Assembly (NCBI GenBank): GCA_963753125.1
Contig: CAVWAU010000003.1
Location: 12,128 to 76,127 of the forward strand
Origin: an uncultured Chloroflexia bacterium
Lineage (GTDB): Bacteria > Chloroflexota > Limnocylindria > QHBO01
DNA length: 64,000 nt
Reading direction: 5' to 3'
A program made the position numbers and the translations under genes. Shown here one piece after another: positions 20,190-53,289 of this stretch. The number at the start of each line of letters is the position of its first letter. Positions within the stretch are counted from its first letter, which is position 1. A model generated the notes under the pieces. That model had not been told where the DNA came from. It saw only the letters and a program-made list of their open reading frames with translations, and did no database searches.

Positions 20190-21283
20190 CTACCGAAGCG
20201 CCTCGATGAGGTCGTACGGGTCGGAGCCCACGATCGGCGTCCCGTACAGCTCCATGGCGCCGATGTCGGACGGGCGAAGGAACGGATCGCCCCGATCGAC
20301 GAGCCTGACCATCGGCGGGATGGCCTCCCAGCCCTCGGCGTCCGCCAGCGGCGGGCGCCACAGCGCGAGGTTGAAGGAGGTCGACGCCGACGCGGTCGCG
20401 GTAGCCGATCAGCGTCCGCGCCAGTGCGTCGGCGAAGGGCGGGTCCGTCTCCTCCCTGCCGGGCGTGCCGATGAGCAGCAGCTCGCGCTCCTTGCGCGGG
20501 GTGAGGTGCGCGACGAGAACCACGCCGCCGGGAAGGTCGATCGTCAGCCCGAGCGCTGCGGTGCACCGCGATCATCTCCTCGATCAGGTCCCCGTCGTAA
20601 GCCGGCGCGGCGTCTCGCGCGGAGTCGCTCAACCGCCGCGTAGTGCGACCCGGAGCCGAGCAGCGCCTGCGCGTGGCCGTGGATGATCGAGCTGCCGGCG
20701 CGCCAGAGGCAGTTCCAGATGAGCAGGTAGTTCACCGCGTCGGGATCGTCGCGGCGGGCGCGTTCGGCCCACTCCCGTCCGGTGCGCAGGAGGTCCACCA
20801 CCGTCTCCGTATCGAAGGCGAGCGGGTCGTGCACGTCGAAGACAAGCACGGCGTGGTGCGCATCGGCCATGGCCGCGTTGGCGCCGGTGATGACGCGCGT
20901 CCCGCGGACTCGTCCGAACGTGTCGGCAGGCGTGCCGGTCTCGGGATGGCAGAAGGGGTCTCCCTCGACGGTCGCCGGATCTCCGCTGGCGAGGTCTCGA
21001 CCATGCTCGGGTCCGTCGACCGGGCGGCGGCTGCGCAGCGGCGCGAAGAGCGTCGCCTCGCAGCGTCACGCGGATTCGTCACCTTCAGCACGGCCTGGTC
21101 GCGCACCGCCGCGACCGAGCCGAACGTGGCGGCGAGCCACGGCTCCAGCTCGGGCGGCGGCACGGTGCTGGCCGCTCACCAGCCGAACCTCGTAGAGGCG
21201 GTCCGCCCGCTCGCGCGCCGCGCCGGTCAACGCCTCCAGGCGGGCCGGGAGCTCGAGGACGCCCGTCAGTCGTACTCCCAACA
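20190..21283 (-). CDS. GalT/HIT-superfamily nucleotidyltransferase-like protein, multiply frameshifted as sequenced
   Basis: Pieced from at least 5 frame segments: MLGVRLTG...; PPELEPWLAATFGSVAAVRDQAVLKVTNP; HAVLVFDVHDPL...NYLLIWNCLWRAGSSIIHGHAQALLG (intact H-x-H-x-Q); DLIEEMIAVH; VVLVAHLTPRKERELLLIG; and FNLALWRPP...GSDPYDLIEALR with TAG at 20190-20192. The start is uncertain. Confidence 0.55.
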
Positions 21284-21856
21284 TAGGCCGATGCGGCAGG
21301 GCGGCCCACTCGTCGCGGAGCAGGCTCATGACGTGGACATCGATGTGCTCGCCACGCCCGAAATGCGCGCGACGCAGGGTCCCCTCGTGGCTGAACCCGG
21401 CCTTCTCGTACGAACGGCGAGCCCGATCGTTCCCGGCGTAGACGTACAGGCCGATCCGCTCGAGCCGCAGCTCGCCGAAGCCGAAGTCGCAGATGGCGCG
21501 CAGCGCATCGGTCCCGTGGCCCTTGTTCCACTCGCTTTTCTCGCCGATGGCGATGCCGAACTCGGCGTTGCCATTCTGGAAGTCGACGCCGTGCAGGCCG
21601 ATCGTCCCGATCGGTCGAGAGTCGTCCAGCAGGCAGATGACGAAGTGGTAGTCGGTGGTGCCCTGGGCGGCCAGCATGCGTTCGAACCACTGGGCCTCGG
21701 CAGCCTCGCTCATCGGTGCCCGCATGGCCAGGTTGCGCAGCACCTCCGCGTCGTTGAACCAGCGCACGAAGAGGCGCGATGTCGTCGCGTTCGGCTGGCG
21801 CGGAGGTAGACGTGGTCGCCGCGGATGATCGGCCGGCGTTCGGCTACGCTGCTCAT
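21265..21856 (-). CDS. GNAT N-acetyltransferase (RimJ/RimL-like), frameshifted as sequenced
   Basis: ATG 21856 gives MSSVAERRPIIRGDHVYLR, then a shift near 21795 into FVRWFNDAEVLRNLA...IGTIGLHGVDFQNGNAEFGIAIGEKSEWNKGHGTDA...NDRARRSYEKAGF. The in-frame stop is missing; a TGA at 21265-21267 is reached only after one more shift, so the 3' end is approximate. Confidence 0.7.
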
Positions 21857-21896
21857 CTGCGCCCGAGTCTAGCGTCCGCAAGGAGGACCGATACCG

Positions 21897-22349
21897 ATGG
21901 CCGCCACCCGCACCGCGACCGTCACCTGGAACGGCGACCTCGCCGACCGGCGCCGGGACCGTCACCGCCGGCTCGAGCGAGCTGTTCACCGATCTGCCCG
22001 TGTCGTGGTCCGCCCGCACCGAGGGGCCGCAGGGCCAGACGTCGCCGGAGGAGCTGCTCGCCGCGGCACATGCCTCGTGCTTCTCGATGGCGCTCTCCGG
22101 GGCGCTCGGCCGGGCCGGCACGCCACCTGACCACCTCCACGTCTCGGCCAGCGTGACCTTCGACAAGGTCGGGGATGGCTGGGCGGTGGCGAGCTCTCAG
22201 CTCGACGTGCTCGGCGTGGTGCCGGAATCGACGAAGACGCCTTCGACGCGGCGGCACAGGCCACCAAGGATGGCTGCCCGATCTCAAAGGCCCTGGCCGG
22301 CAACGTCGAGATGTCCGTCTCCGCGGCCCTCGAGGACGAGCACGAATAG
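21897..22349 (+). CDS. OsmC-family peroxiredoxin-like protein, frameshifted as sequenced
   Basis: MAATRTATVTWNGDL, then a shift near 21945 to GSSELFTDLPVSWSARTEGPQGQTSPEELLAAAHASCFSMAL (first Cys), then a shift near 22225 to FDAAAQATKDGCPISKAL (second Cys), with stop TAG at 22347-22349. Confidence 0.75.
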
Positions 22350-22639
22350 CGTCGGGCGCCGCACGCTCCGAAACCTTTTGGGTCCTCCTCGGCTCGGTCC
22401 GGATGAAGGCCGCATTCGCGGCAGCTGAAACAGAACCGATCGGGAAGTCACACGGCGTCGAAGCTGGCCATGCCCTTCCATCCGAGGCCTCGTCCTCGCC
22501 GTGGGCGGCCTCCTGGTCCTGGCCGGAGTCGCCCTGGCGACCGGCGGCGACGGAGCCAATGACGGCGTCCGCGTCGTCGCCCTCGATCTCCCCCTCGCCG
22601 TCCGCCTTCTCGAGACCGCCGGCGGGCGCGTCTGGCCGT

Positions 22640-22854
22640 CGCGTCGGAAGTGCGTAGCGAGCTCCGAGGCGCCGTCGGCGCACTTCCCGAGCCGTACCGC
22701 GAGGTGGTCGCGCTTCGCTTCTTCGCCGAGCTGTCCCTGGCCGAGGTCGCCGAAGCGACCGGGCGTCCCATCGAACACCGTGAAGACGCATCTCCGCCGC
22801 GGGCTCGAGCGGGTTGCGGCCGCTGATCGACGGCGGAGGTGGGGTCACCGATGA
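22640..22854 (+). pseudogene. ECF sigma factor fragment (region 4 only recognisable)
   Basis: SELRGAVGALPEPYREVVALRFFAELSLAEVAEATGRPI, then a shift near 22775 to TVKTHLRRGLER. The TGA at 22852-22854 overlaps the next ATG. The ~290 nt upstream (22350-22640) does not translate to sigma region 2 in any frame I tried. Confidence 0.45.
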
Positions 22855-23423
22855 CGCGACATCCATTCGACTCGGGCGAGCTCGGACGAGACGACCCGGA
22901 AGTGGACCGCCTTGGGCGAGAGCCTCGAGCAGTACGCCACCGACGCGGCAGGGGAGCCATCGCCTGACCTCTCGTCGCGCATCATGGCGGCGATCGACGA
23001 CGAGCCGGTCCCATCCCGGGGCTGGTGGCGGGGCTCGCTGCTCGCCGCGTTCGCCTCCCTGGCATGGTCCGGCACGATTCGGCCCTTGGCGCGGCCGTCG
23101 TGGCGGTGGCCGTGATCGGCGCCCTCGCGCTGGGAGACCTGGCCGATTCGGGCCCGAAACAACACCGGCGCGACGCCGTCGCCGACCGAGGTCTTCAGTC
23201 CGTCGCCGAGCCCCCGTCGGCGAGCCCGACGCCTTCGCCGAGCCCATCGGCGACCCCTTCGCCGACGCCGAGCGCCACTCCGCACCCCGACGTCCGTGCC
23301 GGCGACGCCGATGCCGACTGCAACAGACGACGACCACGGCGGCGATCTGGATACGCCGAGCCCGAGCGAGTCGGACAACAGCGGACCCGGCGGTGGCAAC
23401 AGCGGACCGGCGGCGGGGGCTAG
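22851..23423 (+). CDS. putative anti-sigma / membrane protein with Pro-Ser-Thr-rich tail, frameshifted as sequenced
   Basis: ATG 22851 follows GGAGGTGGGG. Segments: MTRHPFDSGELGRDDPEVDRLG; ESLEQYATDAAGEPSPDLSSRIMAAIDDEP; a TM (LGAAVVAVAVIGALALG); then SPTPSPSPSATPSPTPSATP low complexity. At least 3 frame switches. The end is approximate. Confidence 0.45.
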
Positions 23424-24007
23424 GAGCGGGAGCCTGCCTCGAACATCGGCGGATAGACGACGCTTCCCGGGTCCACGACACGCCCGGCGATCGGGCGCAC
23501 CTGGTAGGCGGCGCCGGCGCCGTCGTACGGAGAGCGCACCCCGGCCTCCTCCGCGGGGCCGAAGCCGAACCGCCGATAGAAGCTCGGCGGTCCGAGGACG
23601 GCGATGAGGGCCTCGTCGCGCCGGTCGGCAACCGCGAGGGCCTCATGCATGAGGGCCGAACCGATCCCGCGTCCCGCGTGCGGCGGCAGCACCGCGAGCG
23701 GTGCGAGAGCCAGGGCATCGCGCCGCGGACTGCCGGCTGGATCCGGCTCGAAACCGACGCGGCTGACCAGGACATGCCCAAGCACGCTCCCGTCGCTCGC
23801 GACCGCGACCAGCGAGAGCTCCGGGAGGAAGTCCGCGCCGGCTCGGATCGCATCGACGAGCTCTGCCTCGGTGGGTCCGCGAAACGCCTCGCGATGCAGC
23901 TCGTGGATCTGATCGAGGTCGACCGGTAGCTCTGGCCTGATCGACCAGGACGGCGCGTCGATCAGGTCAGCGGGGTGCACGAGGGTCATCGCCCGCTGAT
24001 GCTGCAT
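23420..24007 (-). CDS. GNAT N-acetyltransferase
   Basis: Intact ORF with acetyl-CoA motif LAVLPPHAGRGIGSALMHEAL and FYRRFGF. The true start may be the MTLVHP Met at 23989. Confidence 0.8.
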   Translation of the reverse strand: MQHQRAMTLVHPADLIDAPSWSIRPELPVDLDQIHELHREAFRGPTEAELVDAIRAGADFLPELSLVAVASDGSVLGHVLVSRVGFEPDPAGSPRRDALALAPLAVLPPHAGRGIGSALMHEALAVADRRDEALIAVLGPPSFYRRFGFGPAEEAGVRSPYDGAGAAYQVRPIAGRVVDPGSVVYPPMFEAGSRS

Positions 24008-24025
24008 GTGGCGGGCCAGATCGGC

Positions 24026-25128
24026 TCAAACGCCACGCAGAATCCAGAGGTCGTCGAGGGCGCCGCCCTCGTCGCGTCCGCCGAAGAGGAGCGCTCGGCC
24101 TCGGGCCGCATCGACGATGAGCTCGGCGCCGGCCCTCGGCGGCGGAGGATCCCCCGCGGGTTCGAGCACCTGCGCGTCGACGGCATCGTCCGCCAGCAGC
24201 CACAGGTCGTCCAGGTACCCGCCATCGAGCGCAAGGCCGCCGAAGATGATGGTCCCGCCACCCTGGCGGGCTCGGGAGTAGAGGTTGCGTCCCGGCGGCA
24301 GTGTTCCCTCGACCTGGGACCATGCGCCGTCGCGGAGGGTCCACCTGTCATCCAGGGCCACGGTGCCGGTCGTCTGCCCGGCGTAGAGCGCCAGCTCACC
24401 GGCATCGGTCCACCAGCATCCGTGGAGGCATCGCTCGACCGGTCGCCCGCCGGTGGGAGTCTCGTCGGTCCAGCGGCCGGTCGCGAAATCGTAGGCCCGC
24501 GTATCCGAGAAACGGGTTTGCTCCTCGGTGAATCCGTGGCTGATCCAGAGGCGACCGTCCGGCCCGATCGCGGCGCAGGTGCCGTAGCGCGGGACCGGCA
24601 CCGCTCCAGATGCGGGCAGCTGCGTCCACGCCCCTGCGCCGGGATCGTAGGCCCAGAGGTCGTTGAAGAATGTCTGCGGATCGGCCTGGCCGGCGAAGAC
24701 GACGAGACCCACACCGTCGACCCACGCTGCCTCGTGCCCGAACCGAGCCGGTGGGGCCGCCGGCGGCGCAAGCTGCGTCCAGGTGTCGTCCTCGAGCCGG
24801 TACGCCCAGGTATCGCCGAAGACGGTCGCGCCGTCGCGACCACCGAAGAGGTAGGCAACCTCTCCGGCATCGTCGACAGTCCAGGTGTGGTCCTCGCGCG
24901 CCGCCGGGCCATCGACCTCAAGGGCATTCCAGGCGAGCGGCTCGGGAGTCGGCGCCGGCTCGGTCTCGGACGTCGATGGAGAGGGTGCCGAGGCCGTCGG
25001 AGTCGGACCGCGGACTCGGCGACGGAGGGCGGAGACTGCGTCGCACCCGGGCCGGCGGAGCATCCGCCGATCAGGATCGCGACGACGGCGGTGCTCGTGA
25101 GGCGGGATCGCGGCATCCAGCCGAGCAT
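24026..25128 (-). CDS. Kelch-repeat lipoprotein, frameshifted as sequenced
   Basis: Signal peptide plus lipobox MPRSRLTSTAVVAILIGGCSAG in the ORF 23986..25128 frame, with a shift near 25010 into ORF 24026..25063. That frame carries 5-6 Kelch-like blades (YLFGGRDG..DTWAY, VVFAGQ..NDLWAY, ALYAGQT, IIFGGL..DDLWLL, LLFGGRD..DDLWIL). Confidence 0.75.
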
Positions 25129-25175
25129 ACGCCCGGAGCGCGTTCAGCCGTTCTGGCGGCCTCGGCCATGCGCGA

Positions 25176-25251
<76 letters not shown>

Positions 25252-25350
25252 GTCAGGGGCCGATGATACCGGGTCGGAGGCGGTCCACGCAACGCCACGA
25301 CGCCGGGAGGCAGCCTCCCGGCGTCGGGTCGCACGGCGGCCGGATCGGAA

Positions 25351-25633
25351 TCAGCGGATGAGCGTGACGCTGCCGCCGTTGCCTGCTCTCGGCGGCGCAG
25401 CCTCGGCCGGCTGGTTGGCGGCCGCCGTGGCGGCGATGGCGAAGGTGAGCGCGGCTGCCGCGGCCGTGGCGGCCAGGCGGCGCGAGGTGATCCGGCGCTG
25501 CACCGCGCGATCGACGTCGATGGCATCGGTCTGGCGATCCTGTGCGATCCGGTGAAGCGCGCGAGGCGTGGCTCTGGCGCTCGTGATGGATGCTGTCGGC
25601 CAGTTGGTAGGTGCTCGTGTTGGGTGCGAACAT
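25351..25633 (-). CDS. small hypothetical protein with C-terminal hydrophobic helix, frameshifted as sequenced
   Basis: ATG 25633 follows GGAGGAGG. MFAPNTSTYQLADSIHHE, then a shift near 25560 to ALHRIAQDRQTDAIDVDRAVQRRITSRRLAATAAAAALTFAIAATAAANQPAE... Confidence 0.4.
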
Positions 25634-25890
25634 CGGGTGAACCTCCTCCGTCGTCGCCGTGCGGTGGTTGCGACGTTTGTGAGGTAGATGCTGGCCCCGA
25701 GGCGCGGTGACCGCCATCGGCGCGGCGACGTCCCACGCGTCATCCTGCGGATAGCCGGCGAGTCGTCCCCGGGTCCCCGATGCTGTCGCCCACGCGACAC
25801 TTTCGGCCCTTGACGGATGGACCGCGGCGGGGGGAGAGTGCGCGCGAACGCGGCCCCCGAGTGACCGCGACGGGAGGATATCCTCAACTC

Positions 25891-26588
25891 GTGACCGATC
25901 ACGCCCTGGCGGTCAATGGCCTCCGCCGATGCGCGCTCTTCGCCCACGTTCGCGATGACGGCCTCGAGGCGCTTGCCGCGCTCATGCGCCCGCGGCGCTA
26001 TCCGGCGCAACGAGGTGATCTTCCACCAGGACGACGTGGGCGACTCGCTGCACATCGTGGGCAAGGGCGCCGTGAAGATCGTGCTCCCATCGCAGGAGGG
26101 CGAGGAGGCGATCATCGCCACCCTCAAGCCCGGCGAGTTCTTCGGCGAGCTGGCGCTGCTCGACGGCTCGCCGCGCTCGACGACCGCGACCGCGCTCGAG
26201 CAGACCGAGACGCTCGCGCTGCCGCGCGACCAGTTCCAGCGGATGCTGGCCGATGACCCGACGTCTCGTCACCGCCCTCCTGCGCGCGCTCGCCAGCGAG
26301 CTGCGGCGGCTGACGGGCCACGTCGAGGAGCTCCACTTCCTCGACCTCGCAGGGCGGCTCTCGATGCGCCTGGTCCGCCTGGCGCGGGCGTACGATGCGA
26401 ACGCCCGCGGTCGGATCGAGCTGAACTGGCCCTACACACAGAGCGATCTAGCCGCCATGATCGGCGGCACGCGTCAGAGCGTGAACAAGCTGCTGAGCGG
26501 CCTCGTGGATGAGGGGCTCCTGCAGATCGATCGCGAGACGCTGGTGATCAACGATCTCGACGCTCTCGAGGCACGCAGCGCCCGATGA
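25891..26588 (+). CDS. Crp/Fnr-family transcriptional regulator, frameshifted as sequenced
   Basis: GTG 25891 lies 12 nt after GGGAGGA. The cNMP-binding-type effector domain reads VIFHQDDVGDSLHIVGKGAVKIV...GEFFGELALLDGSPRSTTATA, and the C-terminal HTH reads TQSDLAAMIGGTRQSVNKLLSGL. Frames switch near 26005 and 26260. Confidence 0.8.
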
Positions 26589-26591
26589 CCG

Positions 26592-26607
26592 TGTCGCCTA
26601 GCCGACA
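26592..26607. promoter_or_regulatory. candidate Crp/Fnr-type operator TGTCG-N6-CGACA
   Basis: TGTCGCCTAGCCGACA has 5-bp inverted arms at the 16-bp spacing of TGTGA-N6-TCACA sites. It lies 4 nt after the crp-like stop and ~100-200 nt upstream of the repeat-peptide start candidates. Its left arm is part of the first of three GTGTCG(C/G)(C/G) direct repeats (26591, 26615, 26637). Confidence 0.25.
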
Positions 26608-26703
26608 GCACCGCGTGTCGCCGAAACGCTTCGTCCGTGTCGGGCGCGTGCCTAGGATTCAGTCTATTCGCGGCCTCCCGCCGCCTCAAGGAGGGTAGAT
26701 GAC

Positions 26704-27144
26704 ATGGACGACTTCCGGCGGCGGCCGCAGGCGGAGGGCTTCTCGCGTCCGGGGTCGCTCGGCGGTGAGGCATTTGACGACGACGATAGCAGAGGGACAC
26801 ATGATGGACGAGCGTGACGATCTGGCCAGGGGTGTGGCCAAATATCCAAAGATCGATGAGGACGACGTCGAGGGCCACGGCCCGAAGGCGCCGCGGGCGA
26901 TCCGATGAGGACGACGTCGAGGGCCACGGCCCGAAGGCGCCGCGGGCGCACCGACGAGGACGACATCGAGGGCCACGGCCCGAAGGCGCCGCGGGCGACC
27001 GACGAGGACGACGTCGAGGGCCACGGCCCGAAGGCGCCGCGGGCGACCGACGAGGACGACGTCGAGGGCCACGGCCCGACACCGGCGCCGCGGGCGACCG
27101 ACGAGGACGACGTCGAGGGCCACGTCCTGAACCTCAGGCGCTAG
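26704..27144 (+). CDS. tandem-repeat acidic/His-rich small protein (5.5 x TDEDDVEGHGPKAPRA), frameshifted as sequenced
   Basis: AAGGAGGG at 26688-26695. Start candidates are ATG 26699, 26704 (MDDFRRRPQAEGFSRPGSLGGEAFDDDDSRGTH...) and 26801 (MMDERDDLARGVAKYPKI after GAGGGA). The repeats then read in three successive frames because two junctions are 4 nt instead of 3. The stop is TAG 27142-27144. No Cys, no signal peptide. Not recognised as a named family. Confidence 0.55.
26855..27123 (+). repeat. 48-nt tandem repeat, 5.5 copies
   Basis: Copies at 26855-26903 (49 nt), 26904-26952 (49), 26953-27000 (48), 27001-27048 (48), 27049-27099 (51), and a partial copy from 27100. The consensus is GACGAGGACGACGTCGAGGGCCACGGCCCGAAGGCGCCGCGGGCGACC. 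Copies differ at only 1-4 positions plus junction indels. Confidence 0.92.
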
Positions 27145-27155
27145 GCCGCGACGCG

Positions 27156-27942
27156 GTGGTCGACCACCAGAACGATGCCGCGCTAGCCGCGCTCGCCGCG
27201 GCGGCGCGGCGTTCTGCTGTCGCGCGTCGCCTCGCCGGCGACGTTGAGACGCGCCTGCTTCAGAGCATCGTCGACGCGACGGTGCGGCTCTTCGACGCCG
27301 AGGCCGCATCGATCGCGCTCTTCGAGCAGGATCCTGATCGGCTGGAGTTCCGCGTCGCCGCCGGCGAGCATGGCGCCGGCGCGGTCGGGCTGACGGTGCC
27401 GCCCACCCAGGGCATCGCCGGGTTCGTGTACTCGACCGGCCAGGCCCTCGCGCTCTCCGACGTCGCCAACGACCCGCGCTTCGACCGGGACGCGGCCGAG
27501 CAGACCGGCTACGTCCCGCGATCCATCGCGGCCGCGCCGCTCCTGGACGAGCACGGCACGCGTCGGCGTCCTCCAGGTCCTCGACAAGCGAGGCTCGCCC
27601 ACCTTCTCGCTGCGGACATGGAGCTGCTGGCGGTCTTCGCCGGCCAGGCCACCGTCGCCATCGCGGCCGCCCGGGTCCAGCGCGACACGCGATCGGCCTG
27701 CTGCGCAGCGTGCTGTCGCAGATCGAGCCCGACCTCGAGGCCGGAGCAGGTCGAGGCGCTGGTCGGCGCCGCCACCGAGGGCCTCGATGTCGACGACGAG
27801 GCGCCCTTCTGGAGGCTGGTCGAGCAGGTGGCTCGGCTGCGCTCTCTGACCGATCGCGAGACGGCGCTGCTGGCCGACATCCTCGACGTCGTCGCGGCGC
27901 ACGCCGAGGGCAGCCACGCGCGCTGGGGCGGCCCGGCGGTGA
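27156..27942 (+). CDS. GAF-domain protein, frameshifted as sequenced
   Basis: GTG 27156. GAF-like core: LLQSIVDATVRLFDAEAASIALFEQDPDRLEFRVAAGEHG...GIAGFVYSTGQALALSDVANDPRF...IAAAPLLDEHGT, then (shift) IGVLQVLDKRGSPTFSLR, then (shift) DMELLAVFAGQATVAIAAARV. There are compensating shift pairs near 27557/27614 and 27690/27745. A frame-1 TGA at 27940-27942 overlaps the next GTG. Confidence 0.7.
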
Positions 27943-28788
27943 CCGAGAGCTCCGGCCTGGTCGGAGCCGTTCGCGGACCCGCGGCGCGGGCTGCGCCGCA
28001 GCCTGCGCGTCCGCGGCATCACGCGCGACTGGGCATGGGGTGGCTCGACCGGGGCGGGCGTTCGGGTCGGGATCATCGACTCGGGAATGGAGAACGATCA
28101 CCCGGTGCTCCACGGCCGGGTGGTCGAGAACATGACCGTCGAGCTCGGCGGCGAGGAGGCCGCGAGTGGTCCCCGACGAGGCGCAGTCGACATGTTCGGC
28201 CACGGGACGGCCTGCGGTGGCATCATCGTCGGGCCTGGCGCCGGAGGTCGAGATCGTCTCGATCCGCGTCCTCGGGGCCGACCTGCGCGGCAAGGGGACG
28301 GCGTTTGCCGCCGGCCTCGAGTGGGCCATCGAGCAAGGGCTGCAGGTCTGCAACCTGAGCCTCTCGTCGAAGAGCGAGTCGCTCTATCCCGATCTTCCAC
28401 GATCTCGCCGACCGGGCGTACTTCCGCGGCATGGCACTCGTCAGCGCGGCGAACAACGTGCCGGCGCCGAGCTATCCGTCCCTGTTCTCATCGGTCTTCT
28501 CGGTGGCAGCGCACGGCGGAGCCGGATCCCTGGCGGATCTACTACAACCCGGCGCCGCCGGTCGAGTTCGGGGCCTGGGGGGTCGACGTACCGATCGCCT
28601 GGAAGGACGGCGGCGCGACGGTGGCCACCGGCAACAGCTTCGCCGCGCCCCACGTCGCCGGCCTGGCGGCCTTGATCCTGTCGAAGCACCCGGGCCTGAG
28701 CCCGTTCGAGGTGAAGGGAATCCTGGCGAGCGTGGCTGACAACCCCGGCCGCCGCCGCCCTCGCCCACCGCCGGCTCCGAGTCCGTGA
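27939..28788 (+). CDS. S8 (subtilisin-family) serine peptidase without signal peptide, frameshifted as sequenced
   Basis: Catalytic motifs are VRVGIIDSG (Asp), DMFGHGTACGGIIVG (His) and GNSFAAPHVAGLAALILSKHP (Ser). At least 4 frame switches (near 27965, 28215, 28385, 28520). The stop TGA 28786-28788 overlaps the next GTG. Confidence 0.8.
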
Positions 28789-30421
28789 GCCTGGCGCGGA
28801 CCTACCTCGAGCTCTTCCGACGCAACCCGGCCCTCGCGCGGCTCCTGGTCGGCGAGTTCATCTCGGGCATCGGCGACTGGCTCTACCTGGTCGCCGATCC
28901 TGGTCGTCGTCTACGCGGAGAGCGACTCGGCGGTGCTGCTCGGGCATCGTGGGAGCGGCCCGCATCCTGCCGTACGTCCTGCTGTCGGTGCCCGCCGGGA
29001 TCGTCGCCGACCGATTCGACCGGCGCATGGTCCTGCTGGTCACCGATGTCGCGCGCGGCATCATCATGCTGGTCCTCGTCGGCGGCGGTGATCGTCGGTG
29101 CCCCGACGCTCGTGATCGTCGGCGCTCGCGATCCTGGCCGCCTGCTTCTCGACCTTCTTCGGCCCCGCCATCGCCGCCCTGCTGCCAATGCTGGTCGACG
29201 AGAGCGACCTGGGCCCGGCCAACAGCGCGTGGGCCACGCTCGACAACCTCGCCTTCATCCTCGGGCCGGCCCTCGCCGGCCTCCTGCTGGCCGGAGGCTC
29301 GCTGGAGGTCGCCTTCCTGCTCAACGCGGTCTCGTTCGCGCGTCGTCGCCGTCGTGCTGTGGCGCCTCCCAGTCTCCCGCGCGGCGGCCCCGATCTCAGC
29401 CGAGGACGAGGACGCCGGCACCGAGGCGGCGCCGGCGCAGGCTGGATGGCGGCAGCTCGCCGGCCCGCTGGCGGGACCGTTCGTGCTGGACGCGACCACC
29501 AGCCTGGTCGGCGGCGGGCTGGCGGTGCTGACCGTGGTCATCGCGCAGTCGACGTCCTCGGCGCCGGCGAAGCCGGCACCGGTTACCTGAACGCCGCCAT
29601 CGGCGTCGGTGGCGTGATCGCCGGCGTGGCCGGGGGCGCGCTCTTCGCGCGGCGCCTCGGGCTTCCGCTCGCGATCGGCGGGGCCGCCGGCGCCATCGGC
29701 CTTGGCTGGCTGGCCTTCGCGGGCAACCTGGTCGTGGCCATGCTGGCGATGGGCATCGCCGTGGCCGGCCTGCTGCTGCTCGACGTGGTGAACACCACGC
29801 TGATCCAGCGCATCGTGCCCGACGCGATCCGCGGCCGCGCGGTCGGCGTGCTCCAGACCACCTCGACCGCCATCTACGCTGGGCTCGCTCGCGCTGCCGA
29901 TCCTCGCCGACGTCGCCGGCGTGGGTCCGGTGCTCGTCGGCTGCGCCGCGCTGACGGCGGTCGGTGTCGCCGGCACGCTTGTCCTCACCGAGGGTCGCGC
30001 GCGGCCACGCCCGCTCGACGCTGCCGCGGCGCGCCTGCTGGAGCACCCGATCTTCGCCGGATTGCCGGCGCCGCGCCTCGAGGCCGCCGCCTCGCGCCTC
30101 GTCGCAGGTCCCGGTCAGCCCCGGCGATGTCGTGGTGCGCGAGGGCGATCCGGCCGACCGCTTCTACCTCATCGCCGATGGCTCTCTGCGCGTCACCCAG
30201 GGTGCCGACGCGCGTGCAGAGCTGCGCATCTCGGGCCTGGCGACGTGTTCGGCGAGATCGGCCTTCTGCGCGGATCGGCCGCGGACGGCGACGGTCACCG
30301 CGCTGATGCCCGAGGCGTGCTCCTGGCGCTCGAAACCGACGCCTTCGGCGAGCTCGTCGGGTCCGGCCCGGGCCTGAGCTCGCGGCTTCTGACCTGTACC
30401 GCGGCTCGCCTGTCCCGCTAG
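28785..30421 (+). CDS. MFS transporter (EntS/MFS_3-like) fused to C-terminal cyclic-nucleotide-binding domain, heavily frameshifted as sequenced
   Basis: FRRNPALARLLVGEFISGIGDWLYLVA, RILPYVLLSVPAGIVADRFDRR, NLAFILGPALAGLLLA, LIQRIVPDAIRGRAVGV and further TM segments are spread over all three frames (at least 9 switches). The C-terminus is LLEHPIFAGLPAPRLEAAASRL...PGDVVVREGDPADRFYLIADGSLRV...GDVFGEIGLLRGS..RTATVTA. Confidence 0.75.
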
Positions 30422-31109
30422 CCGGTCGCCTGCGTCGGCCAGCCCGGCGAGCGTCGGTTGCAGTCGTCGCGCCACGGCGGGTAGTGGCGAGAGCGCGATG
30501 GTCTCGACGTCGAGCGCCGCCAGCCGCTCGACCGACGCCCGCGCGCCGGCATGGTCGTGGCTGAAGAAGGCGCTGGCGTAGGTGAGCCGGCCGCGGACGC
30601 ACCTGGAGCACGTCGCCGGTGAAGAGGAGCCGATGCCGCTCGGCGTAGAGGCAGATGCTGCCCGGCGTATGCCCCGGCGTGTGGACCACCCGCAGGCCGC
30701 CGAGCAGCGGGAGCACCTCGCCGTCGACGATCGGGCGTCGGGTCGGTCGGGCGTGCGGGTCAGGTACTGGATGAGGCGGCCGCGCCGGACGGCGCGGTCG
30801 TCGGTCGCGCGCGAGCGCCTCCCGCAGCGGCAGTCGCAGGCCGGCGAGGTCGTCGGGATGGATCAGGACGGCGACGTCGTCGCGGTCGCGGACGAGCTCG
30901 CTCACGCCGCCGATGTGGTCGGGATGGCCGTGCGTGCAGATGATCCGCTCCAGCTCGTCCATGCCGCGGCCGATGCGACGCAGGTATCGCTCGAGCATGA
31001 GGCGCGAGCCGACCATGCCGGCGTCGATCAGGGTCAGCCGCTCCTCGGCGATCAGGAACGCGTCGGCCCCGAGCATCCGGACCTGGTGCACGCCCGGCGC
31101 GATCTCCAT
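30418..31109 (-). CDS. MBL-fold metallo-hydrolase, frameshifted as sequenced
   Basis: MEIAPGVHQVRMLGADAFLI...LIDAG, metal motif CTHGHPDHIGG, later VVHTPGHTPGSICLY and FTGDVL. At least 3 frame switches in the middle and 3' part. The 3' end is inferred from a minus-strand TAG at 30418-30420. Confidence 0.75.
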
Positions 31110-31132
31110 GGTGCGCGCGATTGTACGGCCGG

Positions 31133-32071
31133 CTACCCGGCCTCGCCAGGTCGCCGGTCAGCATGCGCCGATACGAGTCGTACCGATCCTCGCGAGATCG
31201 CGCCTGCCTCGACCGCCGCCCGCAGCCCGCAGCGCGGCTCGTGAAGGTGAGTGCAGTCGTTGAAGGCGCAGCGCGCCGAGGTGCGGCCGGAACTCCGGGA
31301 AGCAGCGAGGCCAGCTCGGTGGGCGGGATCTGCCACAGGCCGAGCTCGCGGATGCCGGGCGTGTCGGCCACGAAGCCGCCGCTCGGCCCCGTCGAGCGGA
31401 TGCAGCTCCGCGTGGGTCGTGGTGTGGCTTGCCCTTGCTCAGCGCCTCGCTGACACCTCGCCGGTCGCCAGCTGGAGGCCCGGCTGGAGCGCGTTCAGCA
31501 GCGTCGACTTGCCGACGCCGGACGGGCCGGTGACGATCGAGAGGCGGCCGGCGAGCCGCTCCCGCAGCTCCTCGAGGCCGGTGCCGGTCTCGGCGCTGGT
31601 GTAGACCACGTCGTAGCCGATGCGCTCGTACGGCGCGAAGCGCTCCGCGGCCGCATCGGCACCCGACGAGGTCCACCTTGTTGCGCGACCAGCGCGACGG
31701 GGACCTCGTTGTACTCGGCCACGACCAGGAAGCGGTCGATCAGCCGCGGGTTCGGGGTCGGGCGATCGCACGAGAAGACGACGACGACCAGGTCGGGGTT
31801 GGCCACCATCACGTCCTCGCGCCACGACCCGCGCGGCCCCGGCTGGCGACGGCTGAAGCGACGCTCGCGCGGCTCGACGGAGACGATCGCGCCGGTGCCG
31901 TCGGGCAGCCGCTCGACGCGTCACCCGGTCGCCGATGACCGCCAGGTCGGAGGCCTGGCGCTCCTTCTTCACCCGGCCGCGCAGCCGCGCCTCGACCAGG
32001 TCCCCCTCCGCGGTGGCGACGGTGTAGAAGCCGGAGCGCGCCCGCAGCACGAGGCCGGTCGTAGTGGTCAC
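31133..32071 (-). CDS. rsgA: ribosome small-subunit-dependent GTPase A, heavily frameshifted as sequenced
   Basis: OB-fold start GLVLRARSGFYTVATAEGDLVEARLRGRVKK; ANPDLVVVVFSCDRPTPNPRLIDRFLVVAE; G1 motif IVTGPSGVGKSTLLNAL; ADTPGIRELGLW; zinc knuckle CAFNDCTHLHEPRC. At least 6 frame switches. GTG 32071 overlaps the upstream stop. Confidence 0.75.
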
Positions 32072-32922
32072 CCGAGCGCGCCCACCGCGCTGCGCGTAGA
32101 TCGTGTCCTCGCGGCGCGGCACGTCCGGCCCGCGCGCCATGCGGCCGCCCCACTCCTCGAGCGTCGGCGCCCAGCCTCGCCGAGCCGGTCGGCGCCGGCG
32201 CGGTTGCCCGGCGGCAGGTTGAGCGCAGCGCTCGGCTCGACGGCAGCCGGTCGAAGCGCCTCGCCGACGAGGCGCGCGGCGATCTCGGGCGTATCGGCGA
32301 CCAGCGGGCCGACGCGCTCGGCCGTCGGGCCGGACCCAGCCCAGCCGACGAGCGCTGCCGTCGCGCCGGGCGACGACGAGCGGCCGATCGGCATCGGCCA
32401 GCATCGGTCCCAGCAGCGGCGCGCCGATCGCCGCCGAAGCGCGGCGCGTCGTAGGCGACCAGCTCGTCGAGGCGCGGGTCCGCCGTCGGCAAGCTCGAGC
32501 GTGCCGTCGGCCGCCACGCGTCGAGGCGCGCGGCACGCGGGACCACGGCCGCTCGGACCCGATCGAGCTCGAAGCCGTGGCGCGCGTAGAGCGGCCGGCC
32601 CGGTCCGGGGTCGCGGACAGCTCGAGGCGGTCCGACGCCACGCTCGTGCAAGGAAGTCGACCACCGACTCCAGGATCGCCGAGCCGATGCCCCGTCGCCG
32701 GATGCTCGGCGTCGACGATCATGTTGCCGACGACGCCGAGGCGCCCGTAGCTGATCCCGCTGCCGACGCCGACGACGCGGCCACGCCCGTCCACGGCGAC
32801 CAGGCAGCGCGCGTGCGGCGGCTCGAGGACCGCGCGGAGCGCCCAGTCATGCGACGGCCCAGCCGACCGACTCGCGCAGCTCGGCGATGCGCGGCAGGTC
32901 GGCCAGGTCGGCGGTGGCGCAT
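32068..32922 (-). CDS. GNAT-family acetyltransferase with extra C-terminal domain, heavily frameshifted as sequenced
   Basis: ATG 32922 gives MRHATADLADLPRIAELRESVGW. Further segments: CLVAVDGRGRVVGVGSGISYGRLGVVGNMIVDAEH, GRPLYARHGFEL, and a C-terminal part with DELVAYDAPRFGGDR. The segments lie in all three frames. Confidence 0.6.
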
Positions 32923-32974
32923 GCTGAGTCGATCGGGGAGCGGCATCGAGAGCGAGTCTAGCCGCGCGTCTAGC

Positions 32975-33432
32975 ATGGCGAGATGGACGACCTCCGAGGA
33001 CCGATACGCCCTGACTGGTTGCGGCCTTCGGGCGTTGGGCAGCGGACCGGTCGCCGGCCTGAATCGGCTCACCACCGATGCGGCCGCGCTGGCCGCCGCG
33101 GCCGAGTCGAGCTGGCTGCGCGTCCAGGCCCGCTCGCTCGCGGAAGCGGCTCGTGCCGGCCGGCCATGACGCCGAACTCGAGATCATCGTCGACGCCTCC
33201 GTTCCACCGATCGACGAGACGGCGGTCGCCCGCCTCGAGGACCTGCTGCCGGCGGGGCGCATCGCTCGCCGGAGCGGCTCGCGGCCGACGAGGCGGCGAC
33301 GCGGCTGCCCCGCGCGCGCTGCAGCCGTGGCCGATCGGCTGCTCTGACCTGCTGCGCCACCGCTCCTCCGAGGATCTCGACCTCCCCGCCGACCATCGGC
33401 TCTTGCTGCGAGTCGACGAGGCGGGCGGCTGA
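32975..33432 (+). CDS. hypothetical protein, frameshifted as sequenced; weak call
   Basis: ATG 32975 (MARWTTSEDRYALTG...) or ATG 32983. The most protein-like pieces are HDAELEIIVDASVPPIDETAVARLEDLLPAG and LQPWPIGCSDLLRHRSSEDLDLPADHRLLLRVDEAGG, ending at 33432. No family recognised. Confidence 0.3.
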
Positions 33433-34039
33433 TCGCTGGTCAGTGAGGCTCGAATCGAGCTCGCAGTCGGCACGACTGGTCCTCAACGCGAGGGTGGCAT
33501 GGACGCCTGACGGCCTGGTCGCGCTGCCATCGCGCGCGTACGGCCTATCCGGGCCGCCACCTCGCGCCGCCTCATGCGGCCGGCACCGCCGAGCTCGAGC
33601 CCGTCGCCGATCACGACCGGTCGAGCGCGGCTCGCGAGCCGATCGGCCGCGAGGTTCTCCTCGCTGACCACGAGCTGGCCCGCGAGCTCGAGCGGATCGG
33701 CCGAGCCGCCGGCGTCGACTGGCACGGCCGCACGCATGCTTCGCAGTCGGCCCGAGCCCTTCGAGGACCTCGCGCCCGCCTACGCGAGCCGCCGCAGTCG
33801 CCAGACCGTGTCGACGCGCGACGACGCCTCCTGGCCCTGGGCACCGATCCCCGGGCGGTCGATGCGCTGGTCGGCCGCATGGCGCGATCCGTTGGCGCGA
33901 GCCGGAGCCGTCGCCACGCGCGGCCGGCCCGCCGCTCGTGCGCCGCTGGCTCGCGACGGTGGGTCAGACCACCGGGCTCCAGCTGCTCCTGTGCGGAGCG
34001 CGCTCGTACGCCGACCGATGCTCCGCGCAGAGATCGGCG

Positions 34040-35231
34040 ATGGCCCGCGGCTGAGCGCGAGTCCGTCGACGTCCTCCTCGTCGGCGGTGGCGTCGCCTCC
34101 GCGCGCTGCGCCCGCACGCTGCGGCGCCACGGGTTCGCCGGATCGATCCTGATCGTCGGCGAGGAGGACCGGGCGCCCTACAACCGGCCGCCGCTCAGCA
34201 AGGAGCTCCTGCGCGACGACCTGCCCGACGAGCTGCTCGCCGCGGAGCCGCCGCGCTGGTACGCGCGGCGATCGATCGAGCTGCTGACCGGCGTGACGGT
34301 CGACCGGCATCGACCCGTTCGCCGGCCGCGCGCGCCACGCTGACCGGCGGCGGCCGATCCGGTTCGACCGTGCTCTGCTGGCGACCGGCGCGGAGGTTCG
34401 GCGGCTCCCGATCCCCGGCGCGGAGCACGCACTCACGCTGCGGACTGCCGCCGATGCCCGCCGCTGCGGCCGCGGCGTCGCCGCTGGCCGCCGGGCTGCA
34501 GCCGGTCGTCGTCATCGGCGGCGGGTTCATCGGCCTCGAGGTCGCATCCGGCGCTGGCCGCCCTGGGCCTGCGACCGACGGTGGTCGAGATCGGCGCCGG
34601 CGCTGTGGGACGGCACGCTCGGCGATCGACCTCGCCGGCATGGGCCGGCGAACGCCTGGCCGAGGTCGGCGTCGAGCTCCGGCTCGGGGCCGACGTCGTC
34701 GCGGCTCGACGACGGGGCCGCGTGGTGGTCGGCGACGAGCGGCTCGCCGCGGCGTTCGTGGTCGTCGGCGATCGGTGTGCGGCCGCGCGACGACCTCGCG
34801 GCAGACGGCCGGCATCGCGGCTCGACGACGGCATCGTCGTCGACGCCGGCCAGCGCGACGAGCACCCGGCCGTCTGGGCGGCCGGCGACGTTGCGCGCGT
34901 GGACGGCCGTCGCGGGTCGAGCATTGGCACGCCGCGCGCGAGGCGGGCGAGCGGGCCGCCCTCTCGATGCTCGGGCGGCCGGTGCCCGCATGCTGCCGGC
35001 GCCGTGGGTCTTCTCCGAGATCGCGGGGACGATCGGTCGACGTCGTCGGCGCCGTCGACGGCTGGGACGAGGAGCGCTGGCTCGAGGCCCGGACGCCTGA
35101 GGGTACCTCGTGTACTCCGGGGCGGCATCGTGGTCGGGCTGGCCGGCGTCGACGGAGCCCTGGACGTGCCGCGACGGCCCGGCGGCTGGTCGGCGCGCGG
35201 CGCCACGATCGGCGAGGTCGACGGGCCGTGA
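34040..35231 (+). CDS. FAD-dependent pyridine-nucleotide oxidoreductase, ferredoxin-reductase type, heavily frameshifted as sequenced
   Basis: FAD fold VDVLLVGGGVASARCARTLRRHGFAGSILIVGEEDRAPYNRPPLSKELL; LLATGAEVRRLPIPGAEHALTLRT; a second Rossmann fold around VVIGGGFIGLEV; VEHWHAAREAG. Many frame switches. The start is approximate, and the end is taken from ORF 34581..35231. Confidence 0.7.
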
Positions 35232-35342
35232 CCTGATCACGCCGAACAGCCGGCCGTGACGCATGTGCGTCATCGGCCGCCGGGTCTCTCGCGCCCTCTG
35301 CTAGCCTCGGTACCTGCCCGTCCCCGCATCGGAGGAACTCTG

Positions 35343-37103: not shown

Positions 37104-37128
37104 CCGCCAGCGGCCCCTGCGGGACAAT
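37100..37128 (+). promoter_or_regulatory. candidate sigma-70-type promoter of the suf unit
   Basis: TTGACC (37100-37105), a 17-nt spacer, then GACAAT (37123-37128), about 55 nt upstream of the sufB start. Confidence 0.4.
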
Positions 37129-37140
37129 GCTCGCGTAACA

Positions 37141-37157
37141 CCGACCAAAACAGTCGG
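37141..37157. promoter_or_regulatory. inverted repeat CCGAC-N7-GTCGG just downstream of the candidate -10
   Basis: CCGACCAAAACAGTCGG, read directly. Its position, 13 nt after GACAAT, suits an operator. An Rrf2 regulator is encoded inside the operon. Confidence 0.3.
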
Positions 37158-37183
37158 GATTCGCCGAGCGAGGCGGACCCGGC

Positions 37184-38619
<1,436 letters not shown>

Positions 38620-38623
38620 GCCG

Positions 38624-40214: not shown

Positions 40215-40218
40215 GCCG

Positions 40219-41583: not shown

Positions 41584-41596
41584 GCGGGACGGACCG

Positions 41597-42858: not shown

Positions 42859-42866
42859 GAAGACCG

Positions 42867-44475: not shown

Positions 44476-45702
<1,227 letters not shown>

Positions 45703-45732
45703 CCGACGGCGTCGCTGACGATTCCCGCCGCG

Positions 45733-46128: not shown

Positions 46129-46131
46129 CCG

Positions 46132-51821: not shown

Positions 51822-51826
51822 CGCGC

Positions 51827-53224: not shown

Positions 53225-53289
53225 GGACGGATGATAGGGCCATGAGCCCGATGCAACCCAAGGGAACGCCGGCGCGTCTCAGCGGGCAC

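What the first reader, a model, noticed from the sequence alone, without database searches (positions are those of the whole stretch)
26855..27123. Near-perfect 48-nt coding tandem repeat whose junction lengths (49, 49, 48, 48, 51) break the frame twice
Read directly from the sequence. There are five full copies plus a half copy of GACGAGGACGACGTCGAGGGCCACGGCCCGAAGGCGCCGCGGGCGACC.
- Copies 1-2 start GATGAG and copies 3-6 start GACGAG, so there are two sub-families.
- Copy 3 has V->I. Copy 5 has a 3-nt insertion (GPKAPRA -> GPTPAPRA).
- The junctions after copies 1 and 2 are ATCC and CACC instead of ACC. The repeats are therefore read successively in frames 2, 0 and 1, and the first frame hits TGA at 26903-26905.

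Such high nucleotide identity implies recent expansion or gene conversion. Repeat number is likely to vary between strains, and the assembly may have collapsed or mis-called it. The unit is strongly acidic with one His and a basic K-A-P-R tail.
Basis: seen in the sequence. Interest (0 to 1): 0.6.

Follow-up and report, generated by a model that had tools for sequence, protein, structure and literature searches.

The report
Repeat-peptide gene broken by assembly errors
The 48-base tandem repeat is real and encodes a small acidic repeat protein of uncultured soil Chloroflexota, but its frame breaks are most likely single-base insertion errors that pepper about 35 kb of this assembly.

Summary
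Six copies start at 26855, 26904, 26953, 27001, 27049 and 27100, with lengths 49, 49, 48, 48 and 51 plus a final partial copy.

The array is the core of one gene, 26704-27144. It encodes a small protein built from D-D-D-[V/T]-E-G-H units. This family has no Pfam or NCBIfam model and is found in 'Candidatus Limnocylindria' (Chloroflexota). The gene almost always sits between a Crp-type regulator and a GAF protein, a bare subtilisin (S8) and an MFS exporter fused to a cNMP-binding domain.

The frame breaks are not specific to the repeat:
- There is a third +1 shift near 26788.
- Ten neighbouring genes need 41 frame corrections in 7.2 kb, with no in-frame stop.
- Short-read contigs from three independent soil metagenomes, 95-99% identical, lack the window's extra bases across about 20.3-55 kb. 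They align without gaps on both flanks.
- In relatives the repeat period is a multiple of 3 in 45 of 45 short-read assemblies. Broken frames occur only in Nanopore assemblies.

No public run covers the repeat itself, so copy number and the two junctions remain unverified.

Verdict: a real gene and an interesting family, but the flagged anomaly is an assembly artefact.

The parts
26691..26696 (+). Shine-Dalgarno-like GGAGGG, 8 nt upstream of the start codon
   Evidence: Read from the sequence.
26704..27144 (+). Whole DDxEGH-repeat protein gene (about 146 codons once three extra bases are skipped). It cannot be read as one ORF as assembled.
   Evidence: Frameshift-aware alignment to four relatives gives three +1 shifts and no stops. 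tblastn hit to the L001 repeat protein.
26704..26787 (+). Conserved N-terminal block MDDFRRRPQAEGFSRPGSLGGEAFDDDD (frame p mod 3 = 1)
   Evidence: Matches the MDNYRRRPPMEGFSRPGSLGGEA.DDD block of P0008, P0015, P0057, L037 and L041.
26788..26791 (+). First frame break (+1), inside the first D-D-D-x-E-G-H motif.
   Evidence: The position is approximate, between 26785 and 26791.
26855..26903 (+). Repeat copy 1 (49 nt, frame p mod 3 = 2). The extra base lies in ATCC at 26900-26903.
26904..26952 (+). Repeat copy 2 (49 nt, frame p mod 3 = 0). The extra base lies in CACC at 26949-26952.
26953..27000 (+). Repeat copy 3 (48 nt, V>I)
27001..27048 (+). Repeat copy 4 (48 nt, the consensus copy)
27049..27099 (+). 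Repeat copy 5 (51 nt, K>TP through an in-frame 3-nt gain)
27100..27144 (+). Last, partial copy DEDDVEGH, then the tail VLNLRR and the stop TAG
   Evidence: The tail matches ...TEGHVLNLR of P0015 and ...TEGHVMNLR of L021, L024 and L026.
25891..26588 (+). Crp/Fnr-type regulator (cNMP_binding + HTH_Crp_2), split by +1 shifts near 26002 and 26261
   Evidence: A relative's short-read contig lacks the base at 26261.
27156..27942 (+). GAF-domain protein; 4 frame corrections needed
27943..28788 (+). Bare subtilisin-like S8 peptidase with the Asp, His and Ser motifs DSG, HGT and GNSFAAP; 5 frame corrections needed
28785..30421 (+). MFS_3-type exporter fused to a C-terminal cNMP-binding domain; 13 frame corrections needed
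20300..55000 (.). Tract of the assembly with dense single-base indels. The repeat gene lies inside it, and both flanks are clean.
   Evidence: Composition HMM. Short-read contigs from three metagenomes. Truncated Pfam domains in the SUF genes and RsgA.

Best explanation
The array is the repetitive core of a single protein-coding gene, 26704-27144.

What the gene encodes:
- The product is a small, very acidic protein with no signal peptide, probably disordered. It has a conserved N-terminal block and seven D-D-D-[V/T/A]-E-G-H motifs separated by short basic linkers (GPKAPRAT here).
- It belongs to an unnamed family of uncultured soil Chloroflexota (class 'Candidatus Limnocylindria').
- Family members sit in a conserved module: Crp-type regulator, repeat protein, GAF protein, bare subtilisin-like S8 peptidase, and MFS exporter fused to a cNMP-binding domain.
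- The near identity of the copies reflects unequal crossing-over or gene conversion within the gene. This is usual for the family: linkers are uniform within a gene and differ between species.

Why the frame breaks:
- The three breaks (about 26788, 26901 and 26949, each one extra base) are most likely consensus insertion errors.
- They lie in a poorly resolved tract of about 35 kb (roughly 20.3-55 kb) of a long-read metagenome assembly. In the organism the gene is most likely one open frame.

Likely function (inferred, about 35-40% likely):
- The protein is a multi-unit precursor or substrate that the adjacent cytoplasmic subtilisin cuts at or next to the invariant motif.
- The MFS transporter exports the pieces.
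- Cyclic nucleotide controls three levels: transcription through Crp, the GAF protein, and the transporter's cNMP-binding domain.
For: Coding and family:
- GC3 is 0.94-0.98 in the DEDDVEGH frame.
- 144 homologues share the motif. 102 representative clusters out of 1.84 billion proteins match.
- The N-terminal block and the C-terminal tail match relatives.

Module:
- All 9 loci found through the repeat protein carry the Crp, GAF, S8 and MFS::cNMP module genes; in two error-ridden Nanopore loci (L007, L009) some of these are split or were not called. Gene order varies.
- Among 80 species-representative loci found through the GAF protein, S8 follows GAF in 80 of 80.
- A DDxEGH repeat gene precedes GAF in 75 of the 76 loci that have upstream sequence.

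Artefact:
- 41 frame corrections in 7237 nt of ten neighbouring genes. 32 are one extra base, and there are no in-frame stops. Identity to the relative rises to 59-88% after correction.
- The same method gives three +1 shifts in the repeat gene. This matches the local rate: 2.5 expected, P = 0.46.
- Logan contigs of three unrelated soil metagenomes align at 97-99% with no gaps on 16.0-20.2 kb and 55.1-59.5 kb.
- Inside the tract those contigs omit single bases. On 20.4-23.7 kb they omit 20972, 20978, 20985, 21061, 21072, 21776, 21796, 21945, 22773, 22811, 23080 and 23147. On 52.0-54.9 kb they omit or add single bases.
- Several of those places coincide with shifts inferred from proteins (22773, 22813, 23078, 23148).
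- Over 25.8-28.8 kb, contigs from relatives omit 26261, 27561, 28159, 28233, 28391 and 28515, and add a base at 27614. These are the protein-inferred sites.
- A composition HMM finds about 100 frameshift-like switches, concentrated between 20 and 56 kb. Pfam domains are truncated in the SUF genes and RsgA.
- In relatives the repeat period is 3n in 45 of 45 short-read assemblies and in 17 of 20 Nanopore MAGs.
- All homologues with out-of-frame repeats (P0034, P0057, P0064, P0097; L010, L029, L053, L054, L059) come from Nanopore/Flye assemblies. That pipeline is Nanopore-only with one Medaka round (PMC12313526).

Function:
- The S8 is a bare subtilisin catalytic domain with an intact triad.
- The GAF domain is closest to cNMP-binding GAFs.
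- The MFS resembles EntS and peptide exporters.
Against: - No public run holds the repeat itself. The ATCC and CACC junctions, the shift at 26788 and the copy number are therefore not checked directly.
- Over 25.8-28.8 kb the best short-read contigs are only 88-90% alike. There they restate the homology argument rather than test the same strain.
- Two Nanopore relatives (L001/L010 and L008) have intact neighbours but a shifted repeat gene. So tandem repeats may attract shifts for their own reasons. Consensus trouble in repeats is likelier, but real slippage is not excluded.
- The source and read technology of the window's own assembly are not disclosed to me.
- The extra bases are not in obvious homopolymers.
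- The functional model rests only on gene neighbourhood and domain content.
Confidence: 0.85

Rival explanations
1. Real decay. The strain carries a genuinely pseudogenised repeat gene, and pseudogenised neighbours, with true single-base insertions in its DNA.
For: - The shifts are in the deposited sequence.
Against: - There are 41 indels and no nonsense substitution in about 2400 codons, with GC3 and identity to relatives preserved. Natural decay gives many more substitutions than indels (general knowledge).
- The tract includes the SUF Fe-S assembly genes, which are normally indispensable.
- Contigs 97-99% identical from three other soils lack the extra bases.
- The tract has sharp ends with clean flanks.
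Confidence: 0.07
2. Programmed or switchable frame use. The +1 junctions are real and are read through by ribosomal +1 frameshifting. Alternatively they act as an on/off switch that alternates acidic DEDDVEGH units with the Arg-rich alternative frames (TRTTSRATARRRRGR and RGRRRGPRPEGAAGD).
For: - Junction 1 puts CGA-TGA in frame, a stop right after the shift site.
- The off-frames are open and strongly basic.
- Four database homologues also mix frames.
Against: - All the frame-mixing homologues come from Nanopore assemblies, two of them with broken neighbours as well.
- All 45 short-read assemblies with a detectable repeat have a 3n period, and none of the intact short-read genes mixes frames.
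- There is no shared slippery motif at the three sites.
- A 48-nt unit cannot change the frame by copy-number slippage.
- The same kind of shift hits every neighbouring gene.
Confidence: 0.02
3. Separate small genes. ORF 26699-26908 (69 aa, the one a gene caller picked) and ORF 26905-27144 (79 aa) are two real, translationally coupled genes that share ATGA.
For: - The ATGA stop/start overlap at 26905-26908.
- The collection's gene caller called the 69-aa ORF (P0013).
Against: - Both ORFs begin with out-of-frame readings of sequence that is conserved in another frame in relatives (MTWTTSGGGRRRR... and MRTTSRATARRRRGR).
- Relatives have one gene.
Confidence: 0.03
4. This reading is additional, not exclusive. 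The copy number in the assembly is itself wrong, either collapsed or expanded, because the copies are nearly identical.
For: - Copies 3, 4 and 6 are 98-100% identical over 48 nt.
- The surrounding consensus is poor.
- A Nanopore relative (L029) shows 10 copies with frame breaks.
Against: - Long reads normally span a 290-nt array.
- Each copy carries its own markers (GAT/GAC, V>I, K>TP), which argues against a simple collapse.
Confidence: 0.25

Closest known systems
Unnamed DDxEGH-repeat small proteins of 'Candidatus Limnocylindria' (public entries all 'hypothetical protein', e.g. the genes in MAGs MFD09212.bin.2.38 and MFD02360.bin.2.267)
   Same: - Same N-terminal block, the same invariant D-rich-[T/V]-E-G-H motif with basic linkers, and the same short tail.
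- Same place between Crp and GAF-S8-MFS::cNMP.
   Different: - The linker sequence (GPKAPRAT) is its own.
- As assembled, the gene is broken by three extra bases.
Cyanobactin-type multi-core precursors (PatE) with subtilisin-like PatA/PatG proteases
   Same: - A small precursor-like protein with repeated units. Conserved short motifs flank variable stretches.
- It lies next to an S8 protease and a transporter.
   Different: - The S8 scores 15 bits against the PatA/PatG model, whose cut-off is 421.
- No YcaO heterocyclase, no macrocyclase domain and no DUF domains are in the cluster.
- Three cyclic-nucleotide sensor domains are present instead.
- Processing has not been shown.
Poly-peptide pheromone or hormone precursors cut by subtilisin-like (kexin) proteases, e.g. 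yeast alpha-factor precursor (comparison from general knowledge)
   Same: Tandem near-identical units, basic residues shortly before each acidic block (K/R 32-34% at positions -9 and -8), and a subtilase partner.
   Different: - Bacterial and cytoplasmic: neither the precursor nor the protease has a signal peptide.
- The cleavage site is unknown.
Residual indel errors in Nanopore-only metagenome assemblies (Flye plus one Medaka round; PMC12313526)
   Same: - Single-base indels that break otherwise conserved genes.
- These indels are absent from short-read contigs of the same species and are concentrated in one tract.
   Different: - The window's own sequencing technology is not known to me.
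- The errors are mostly insertions and are not at obvious homopolymers.

Membership tests
DDxEGH-repeat small protein family (unnamed) | Two or more D-rich-[T/V/A]-E-G-H motifs separated by short, mostly basic linkers | tested here: met
   Seven motifs in the window gene. Motif profile from 233 units in 64 proteins: D 50-83% at positions -5 to -2, T/V 91%, E 97%, G 95%; the final H was required by the search pattern.
DDxEGH-repeat small protein family (unnamed) | N-terminal block M-D-x-[YF]-R-R-x-P-x-x-E-G-F-S-R-P-G-x-L-G-G-E-A (close subfamily) | tested here: met
   Window 26704-26787 reads MDDFRRRPQAEGFSRPGSLGGEAFDDDD.
DDxEGH-repeat small protein family (unnamed) | Lies in the module Crp / repeat gene / GAF / S8 / MFS::cNMP | tested here: met
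   Same order in the window, 25891-30421. 75 of 76 GAF-anchored loci have the repeat gene and 80 of 80 have S8.
DDxEGH-repeat small protein family (unnamed) | One uninterrupted reading frame, with a repeat period that is a multiple of 3 | tested here: not met
   As assembled there are three +1 shifts. Relatives: 45 of 45 short-read assemblies have a 3n period. The failure is attributed to assembly error, not to the gene.
Assembly indel artefact | The extra or missing single bases are absent from independent accurate-read data of the same species | tested here: met
   Met for genes in the same tract at 20.4-23.7 kb and 52.0-54.9 kb with contigs about 93-99% alike, and both flanks are gap-free. 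For the repeat itself this is not testable, because no run holds it.
Phase-variable contingency repeat | A change in copy number shifts the reading frame (unit length not a multiple of 3) | tested here: not met
   The unit is 48 nt, i.e. 16 codons. Periods in relatives are 3n.
Programmed +1 ribosomal frameshift site | A shift site that is conserved in relatives and has a defined slippery or stall motif | tested here: not met
   Relatives are in a single frame. The three sites share no motif.
Cyanobactin pathway | PatA/PatG-type protease (TIGR03895) and a YcaO heterocyclase in the cluster | tested here: not met
   15.2 bits against a cut-off of 421. No YcaO among the called neighbours in 9 loci.
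QhpE / mycosin S8 equivalogs | Score above the NCBIfam curated cut-off | tested here: not met
   QhpE scores 110.9 against a cut-off of 165. Mycosin scores 110.2 against 278.75.

The most novel reading that the evidence does not exclude
The repeat gene is the substrate of a previously undescribed bacterial module that turns an intracellular cyclic-nucleotide signal into exported peptides.
- A Crp-type regulator switches on a multi-unit precursor.
- A bare cytoplasmic subtilisin, partnered with a cNMP-type GAF protein, cuts the precursor at the invariant DDxEGH motif.
- An MFS exporter gated by its own cNMP-binding domain releases the small acidic, His-bearing peptides, which could act as signals or bind metal.

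The module is confined mainly to soil Limnocylindria, and no member has been studied.
Probability: 0.35. Interest if true: 0.7.

Novelty: new variant of a known kind. Interest (0 to 1): 0.3.

Why it matters
For this finding the main value is a caution.
- A striking coding repeat that breaks its own frame turns out to be ordinary consensus error.
- A 35-kb tract of this contig (about 20.3-55 kb) should not be used for calling pseudogenes, frameshifts or small ORFs without re-polishing.
- Tandem-repeat genes in Nanopore MAGs of this clade are frame-broken in 5 of 20 cases, against none of about 50 short-read cases.

The gene underneath is worth attention in its own right.
- It belongs to a compact family that has no name and no paper. 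102 representative clusters match out of 1.84 billion proteins.
- It is almost invariably linked to a protease, an exporter and three cyclic-nucleotide sensor domains, in an abundant and uncultured class of soil bacteria.
- That makes the idea of a second-messenger-controlled peptide output testable by expressing the genes in another host.

Tried and rejected
Tools and look-ups that gave nothing:
The window's whole genome could not be searched for paralogues or genome-wide frameshift density.
- The window's own 69-aa ORF (P0013) is not on record for a contig look-up.
- Runs found for the repeat stretch (X1, X2, share 0.04) hold nothing useful there. X3-X10 hold the species, but over the repeat they give only 20-35-nt pieces. 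Direct verification of the junctions failed.

Analyses that were discarded or corrected:
- A first crude GC3 frame plot was too noisy. I replaced it with frameshift-aware protein alignment and a Viterbi composition model, which agree with each other.
- My first regex for out-of-frame repeat signatures missed cases, and its replacement gave one false positive (P0012, where the linker holds TLRAT). Both were corrected by reading the sequences.

Database and literature searches with no hit:
- Pfam and NCBIfam give nothing for the repeat protein.
- Literature searches for the motif and for the module found nothing relevant.

Ideas considered and rejected:
- Non-coding repeat: rejected on GC3 and protein homology.
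- CRISPR-like array: rejected because there are no spacers.
- Contingency locus: rejected because the unit is 3n.
- Homopolymer-type error as the cause: the contexts do not show it.

Full report
**1. Observation**

The sequence at 26855-27123 is as described.
- There are six head-to-tail copies of a 48-nt unit, with lengths 49, 49, 48, 48 and 51 and a last copy that runs into a short tail and a TAG stop at 27142-27144.
- Tandem Repeats Finder (TRF) scores the array 476, with 94% matches and 5.7 copies. The next best array in the window scores 96.
- In the frame that reads D-E-D-D-V-E-G-H-G-P-K-A-P-R-A-T, G+C at third codon positions (GC3) is 0.94-0.98 in a 71.7% G+C window. That is the coding frame.
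- The sub-family markers (GAT/GAC, V>I, K>TP) and the four-letter junctions ATCC and CACC are all present.
- Two corrections apply. The stop that ends the first frame is TGA at 26906-26908, and there is a third frame break upstream (section 3).

**2. What the gene is**

A conceptual read-through found 144 homologues. All are small 'hypothetical proteins' built from the same D-D-[V/T]-E-G-H motif.

The closest homologues share an N-terminal block, MDNYRRRPPMEGFSRPGSLGGEA.DDD.VEGH.
- This block is encoded in the window from ATG 26704, eight bases after GGAGGG.
- It lies in a different frame from repeat copy 1.
- The tail ...EGHVLNLR also matches relatives.
- The gene is therefore 26704-27144 and carries seven motifs.

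Neither Pfam nor NCBIfam has a model for the protein. No paper contains the motif in a bacterial context. An exhaustive phmmer search of 1.84 billion representative proteins finds 102 clusters with E <= 0.001, nearly all 55-240 aa long.

**3. Gene neighbourhood**

All nine loci reached through the repeat protein carry the same partner genes; in two error-ridden Nanopore loci (L007, L009) some of them are split or were not called:
- a Crp-type regulator (cNMP_binding + HTH_Crp_2);
- a GAF protein of about 259 aa;
- an S8 peptidase of about 280 aa;
- an MFS_3 transporter with a C-terminal cNMP-binding domain.

The gene order can differ between loci.

I then searched from the other direction. A GAF alignment was scanned over one genome per GTDB species.
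- It gave 398 relatives. The best 80 are almost all labelled Chloroflexota, mostly 'Candidatus Limnocylindria'; a handful carry other labels.
- S8 follows GAF in 80 of 80 loci.
- A DDxEGH repeat gene precedes GAF in 72 of 80 by a strict pattern.
- Inspection of the misses raises this to 75 of the 76 loci that have upstream sequence.

Domain details:
- The S8 is a bare subtilisin catalytic domain. Its best solved relatives are mature subtilisin BPN', residues 20-250. The DSG, HGT and GNSFAAP motifs are present and there is no signal peptide.
- The GAF domain is closest to the cNMP-binding GAFs of PDE2, PDE5, PDE10 and CyaB.
- The transporter resembles EntS-type and peptide exporters.

**4. The frame breaks**

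The window's neighbours are broken too.
- The Crp gene is split between two frames and the S8 between at least two.
- I aligned the proteins of a relative (L001, all intact) to the window with a frameshift-aware dynamic programme.
- Ten genes between 22.6 and 31.1 kb need 41 frame corrections in 7237 nt. 32 of them are one extra base.
- There is not a single in-frame stop, and identity after correction is 59-88%.
- The same programme gives three +1 shifts in the repeat gene, near 26788, 26901 and 26949.
- At the neighbours' rate 2.5 shifts are expected in 441 nt, so P(>=3) = 0.46. The repeat is not special.

A composition-based Viterbi model reproduces the homology-inferred positions. Across the window it finds about 100 frameshift-like switches, at 6-15 per 4 kb between 20 and 56 kb and 0-4 per 4 kb outside that range. 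Pfam domains in the SUF genes, ThiF and RsgA are truncated inside over-long ORFs.

**5. Independent read evidence**

The species is common in soils. 22 runs from at least ten studies hold 26-49% of the sampled words from 12-20 kb.

Logan contigs of three unrelated runs were laid on the window.
- On 16.0-20.2 kb and 55.1-59.5 kb they align at 97-99% with no gaps. One example is a 2135-nt contig with 68 substitutions and no gap.
- On 20.4-23.7 kb the contigs leave out single bases of the window. On 52.0-54.9 kb they leave out or add single bases.
- Examples are 20972, 20978, 20985, 21061, 21072, 21776, 21796, 21945, 22773, 22811, 23080 and 23147, seen in all three runs.
- The last four coincide with shifts I had inferred from proteins (22773, 22813, 23078, 23148).

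Over 25.8-28.8 kb only contigs 88-90% alike are available.
- They too omit 26261, 27561, 28159, 28233, 28391 and 28515, and add a base at 27614. These are again the inferred sites.
- At >=96% likeness nothing longer than about 70 nt lies there.
- No run holds the repeat.

So the artefact is shown for the tract and inferred for the repeat.

**6. Relatives as a control**

- TRF finds a tandem repeat upstream of GAF in 65 loci.
- The period is a multiple of 3 in 45 of 45 short-read assemblies and in 17 of 20 Nanopore (Microflora Danica) MAGs. The three exceptions (periods 106, 107 and 115) are genes with visible frame breaks.
- Every homologue that mixes frames comes from a Nanopore/Flye assembly. 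These are P0034, P0057, P0064, P0097, L010, L029, L053, L054 and L059.
- That pipeline is Nanopore-only with one round of Medaka (PMC12313526).
- Two of these relatives have intact neighbours. Near-identical tandem copies therefore seem especially prone to consensus slips.

**7. Repeat dynamics**

- Period 48 is the commonest in the family (12 loci), followed by 45 (9 loci).
- Copy number ranges from about 2 to 10.
- Within-gene identity has a median of 91% and reaches 100%.
- Linkers differ freely between species.

**8. Mechanism**

Shown:
- The array is a coding repeat and a member of the family.
- It is tightly linked to the protease, exporter and sensor module.
- The local assembly noise is real.

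Inferred:
- The protein is cut by the adjacent subtilisin and the products are exported under cyclic-nucleotide control.
- The invariant acidic-His motif could be the recognition element or the functional part of the product.
- K/R is enriched 8-9 residues upstream of the motif's Glu and Ala 7 residues upstream. This resembles processing sites, but no cleavage has been shown.

**9. Rivals**

- Real pseudogenisation is unlikely. There is no nonsense change in about 2400 codons, the tract includes housekeeping SUF genes, the tract has sharp ends, and near-identical strains lack the bases.
- Programmed frameshifting or phase variation fails on conservation and on the 3n unit length.
- The reading as two coupled small ORFs sharing ATGA at 26905-26908 is a by-product of the inserted bases.
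- The copy number itself may be mis-assembled and could not be checked.

**10. Earlier notes of this scan**

- A note on another genome (e1-933432) describes the same family and module and reaches the same functional guess. I re-derived the linkage independently.
- A first-reader note on this locus (e1-2804383) lists the five genes.
- A note on another piece of this genome (e1-3192792) reports about ten frame hops in one gene. That fits patchy assembly noise.

**11. Limits**

- The origin and read type of the window's assembly are unknown to me.

Noticed in passing
window 20300-55000: A tract of about 35 kb is dense in single-base indels, mostly extra bases, and both flanks are clean. Short-read contigs from three soils show no gaps on 16.0-20.2 kb and 55.1-59.5 kb but 2-12 one-base gaps per 400-600 nt inside. 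Any pseudogene, frameshift or small-ORF call inside this tract is suspect.
   Followed up: yes
window 37501-44914 and 31439-33259: The SUF genes, ThiF and RsgA sit in over-long ORFs that match only part of their Pfam profiles (SUFBD_core 209-232 of 232; Aminotran_5 2-301 of 371; ThiF 1-103 of 238; RsgA_GTPase 74-140 of 174). The same indel noise produces fused or truncated reading frames here.
   Followed up: partly
window 12000-20000: The organism, or very close strains, is widespread. 22 soil and rhizosphere metagenome runs from at least ten studies hold 26-49% of the sampled 31-mers of this stretch.
   Followed up: partly
window 25800-28800: In the runs that carry 97-99% identical contigs for the flanking regions, the Crp / repeat / GAF / S8 region is matched only at 88-90%. 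Many of the differences are spaced by multiples of 3. The module may therefore diverge faster between strains than its surroundings, or the tract may come from a rarer strain.
   Followed up: no
L001/L010 6001-6970 (MAG MFD02360.bin.2.267); L008 2119-2685: These relatives have fully intact neighbours but still have frame-shifted repeat genes. In L001 three more DDTEGH units continue in the +1 frame after the called stop. Tandem repeats look like hot spots for consensus slips in Nanopore MAGs (5 of 20 loci, against none of about 50 short-read loci).
   Followed up: partly
L079 700-960: This is the only GAF-anchored locus with upstream sequence where GAF follows Crp directly and no repeat gene is present.
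   Followed up: no
P0003, P0004, P0009, P0034, P0037, P0042, P0086, P0105: A second subfamily of DDxEGH proteins lacks the MDNYRRRPP block. It ends instead in a conserved helix-like tail, (N/S)P.L...LARAREQDIQR.L......A..RPHKK. It has the same module partners in a different gene order (L005, L008).
   Followed up: partly
window 26103-26203: The word depth of laid contigs spikes to 170-325 here, against about 5-40 around it. This is a highly conserved stretch of the cNMP-binding domain shared by many soil organisms, not a copy-number signal.
   Followed up: no
window 22548-23430: The sigma-70 family gene and the following gene (the anti-sigma position) are also shifted, by 2 and 6 corrections. 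The first ~117 residues of the relative's sigma factor gave no clear alignment (only a weak, stop-containing match from residue 87).
   Followed up: no
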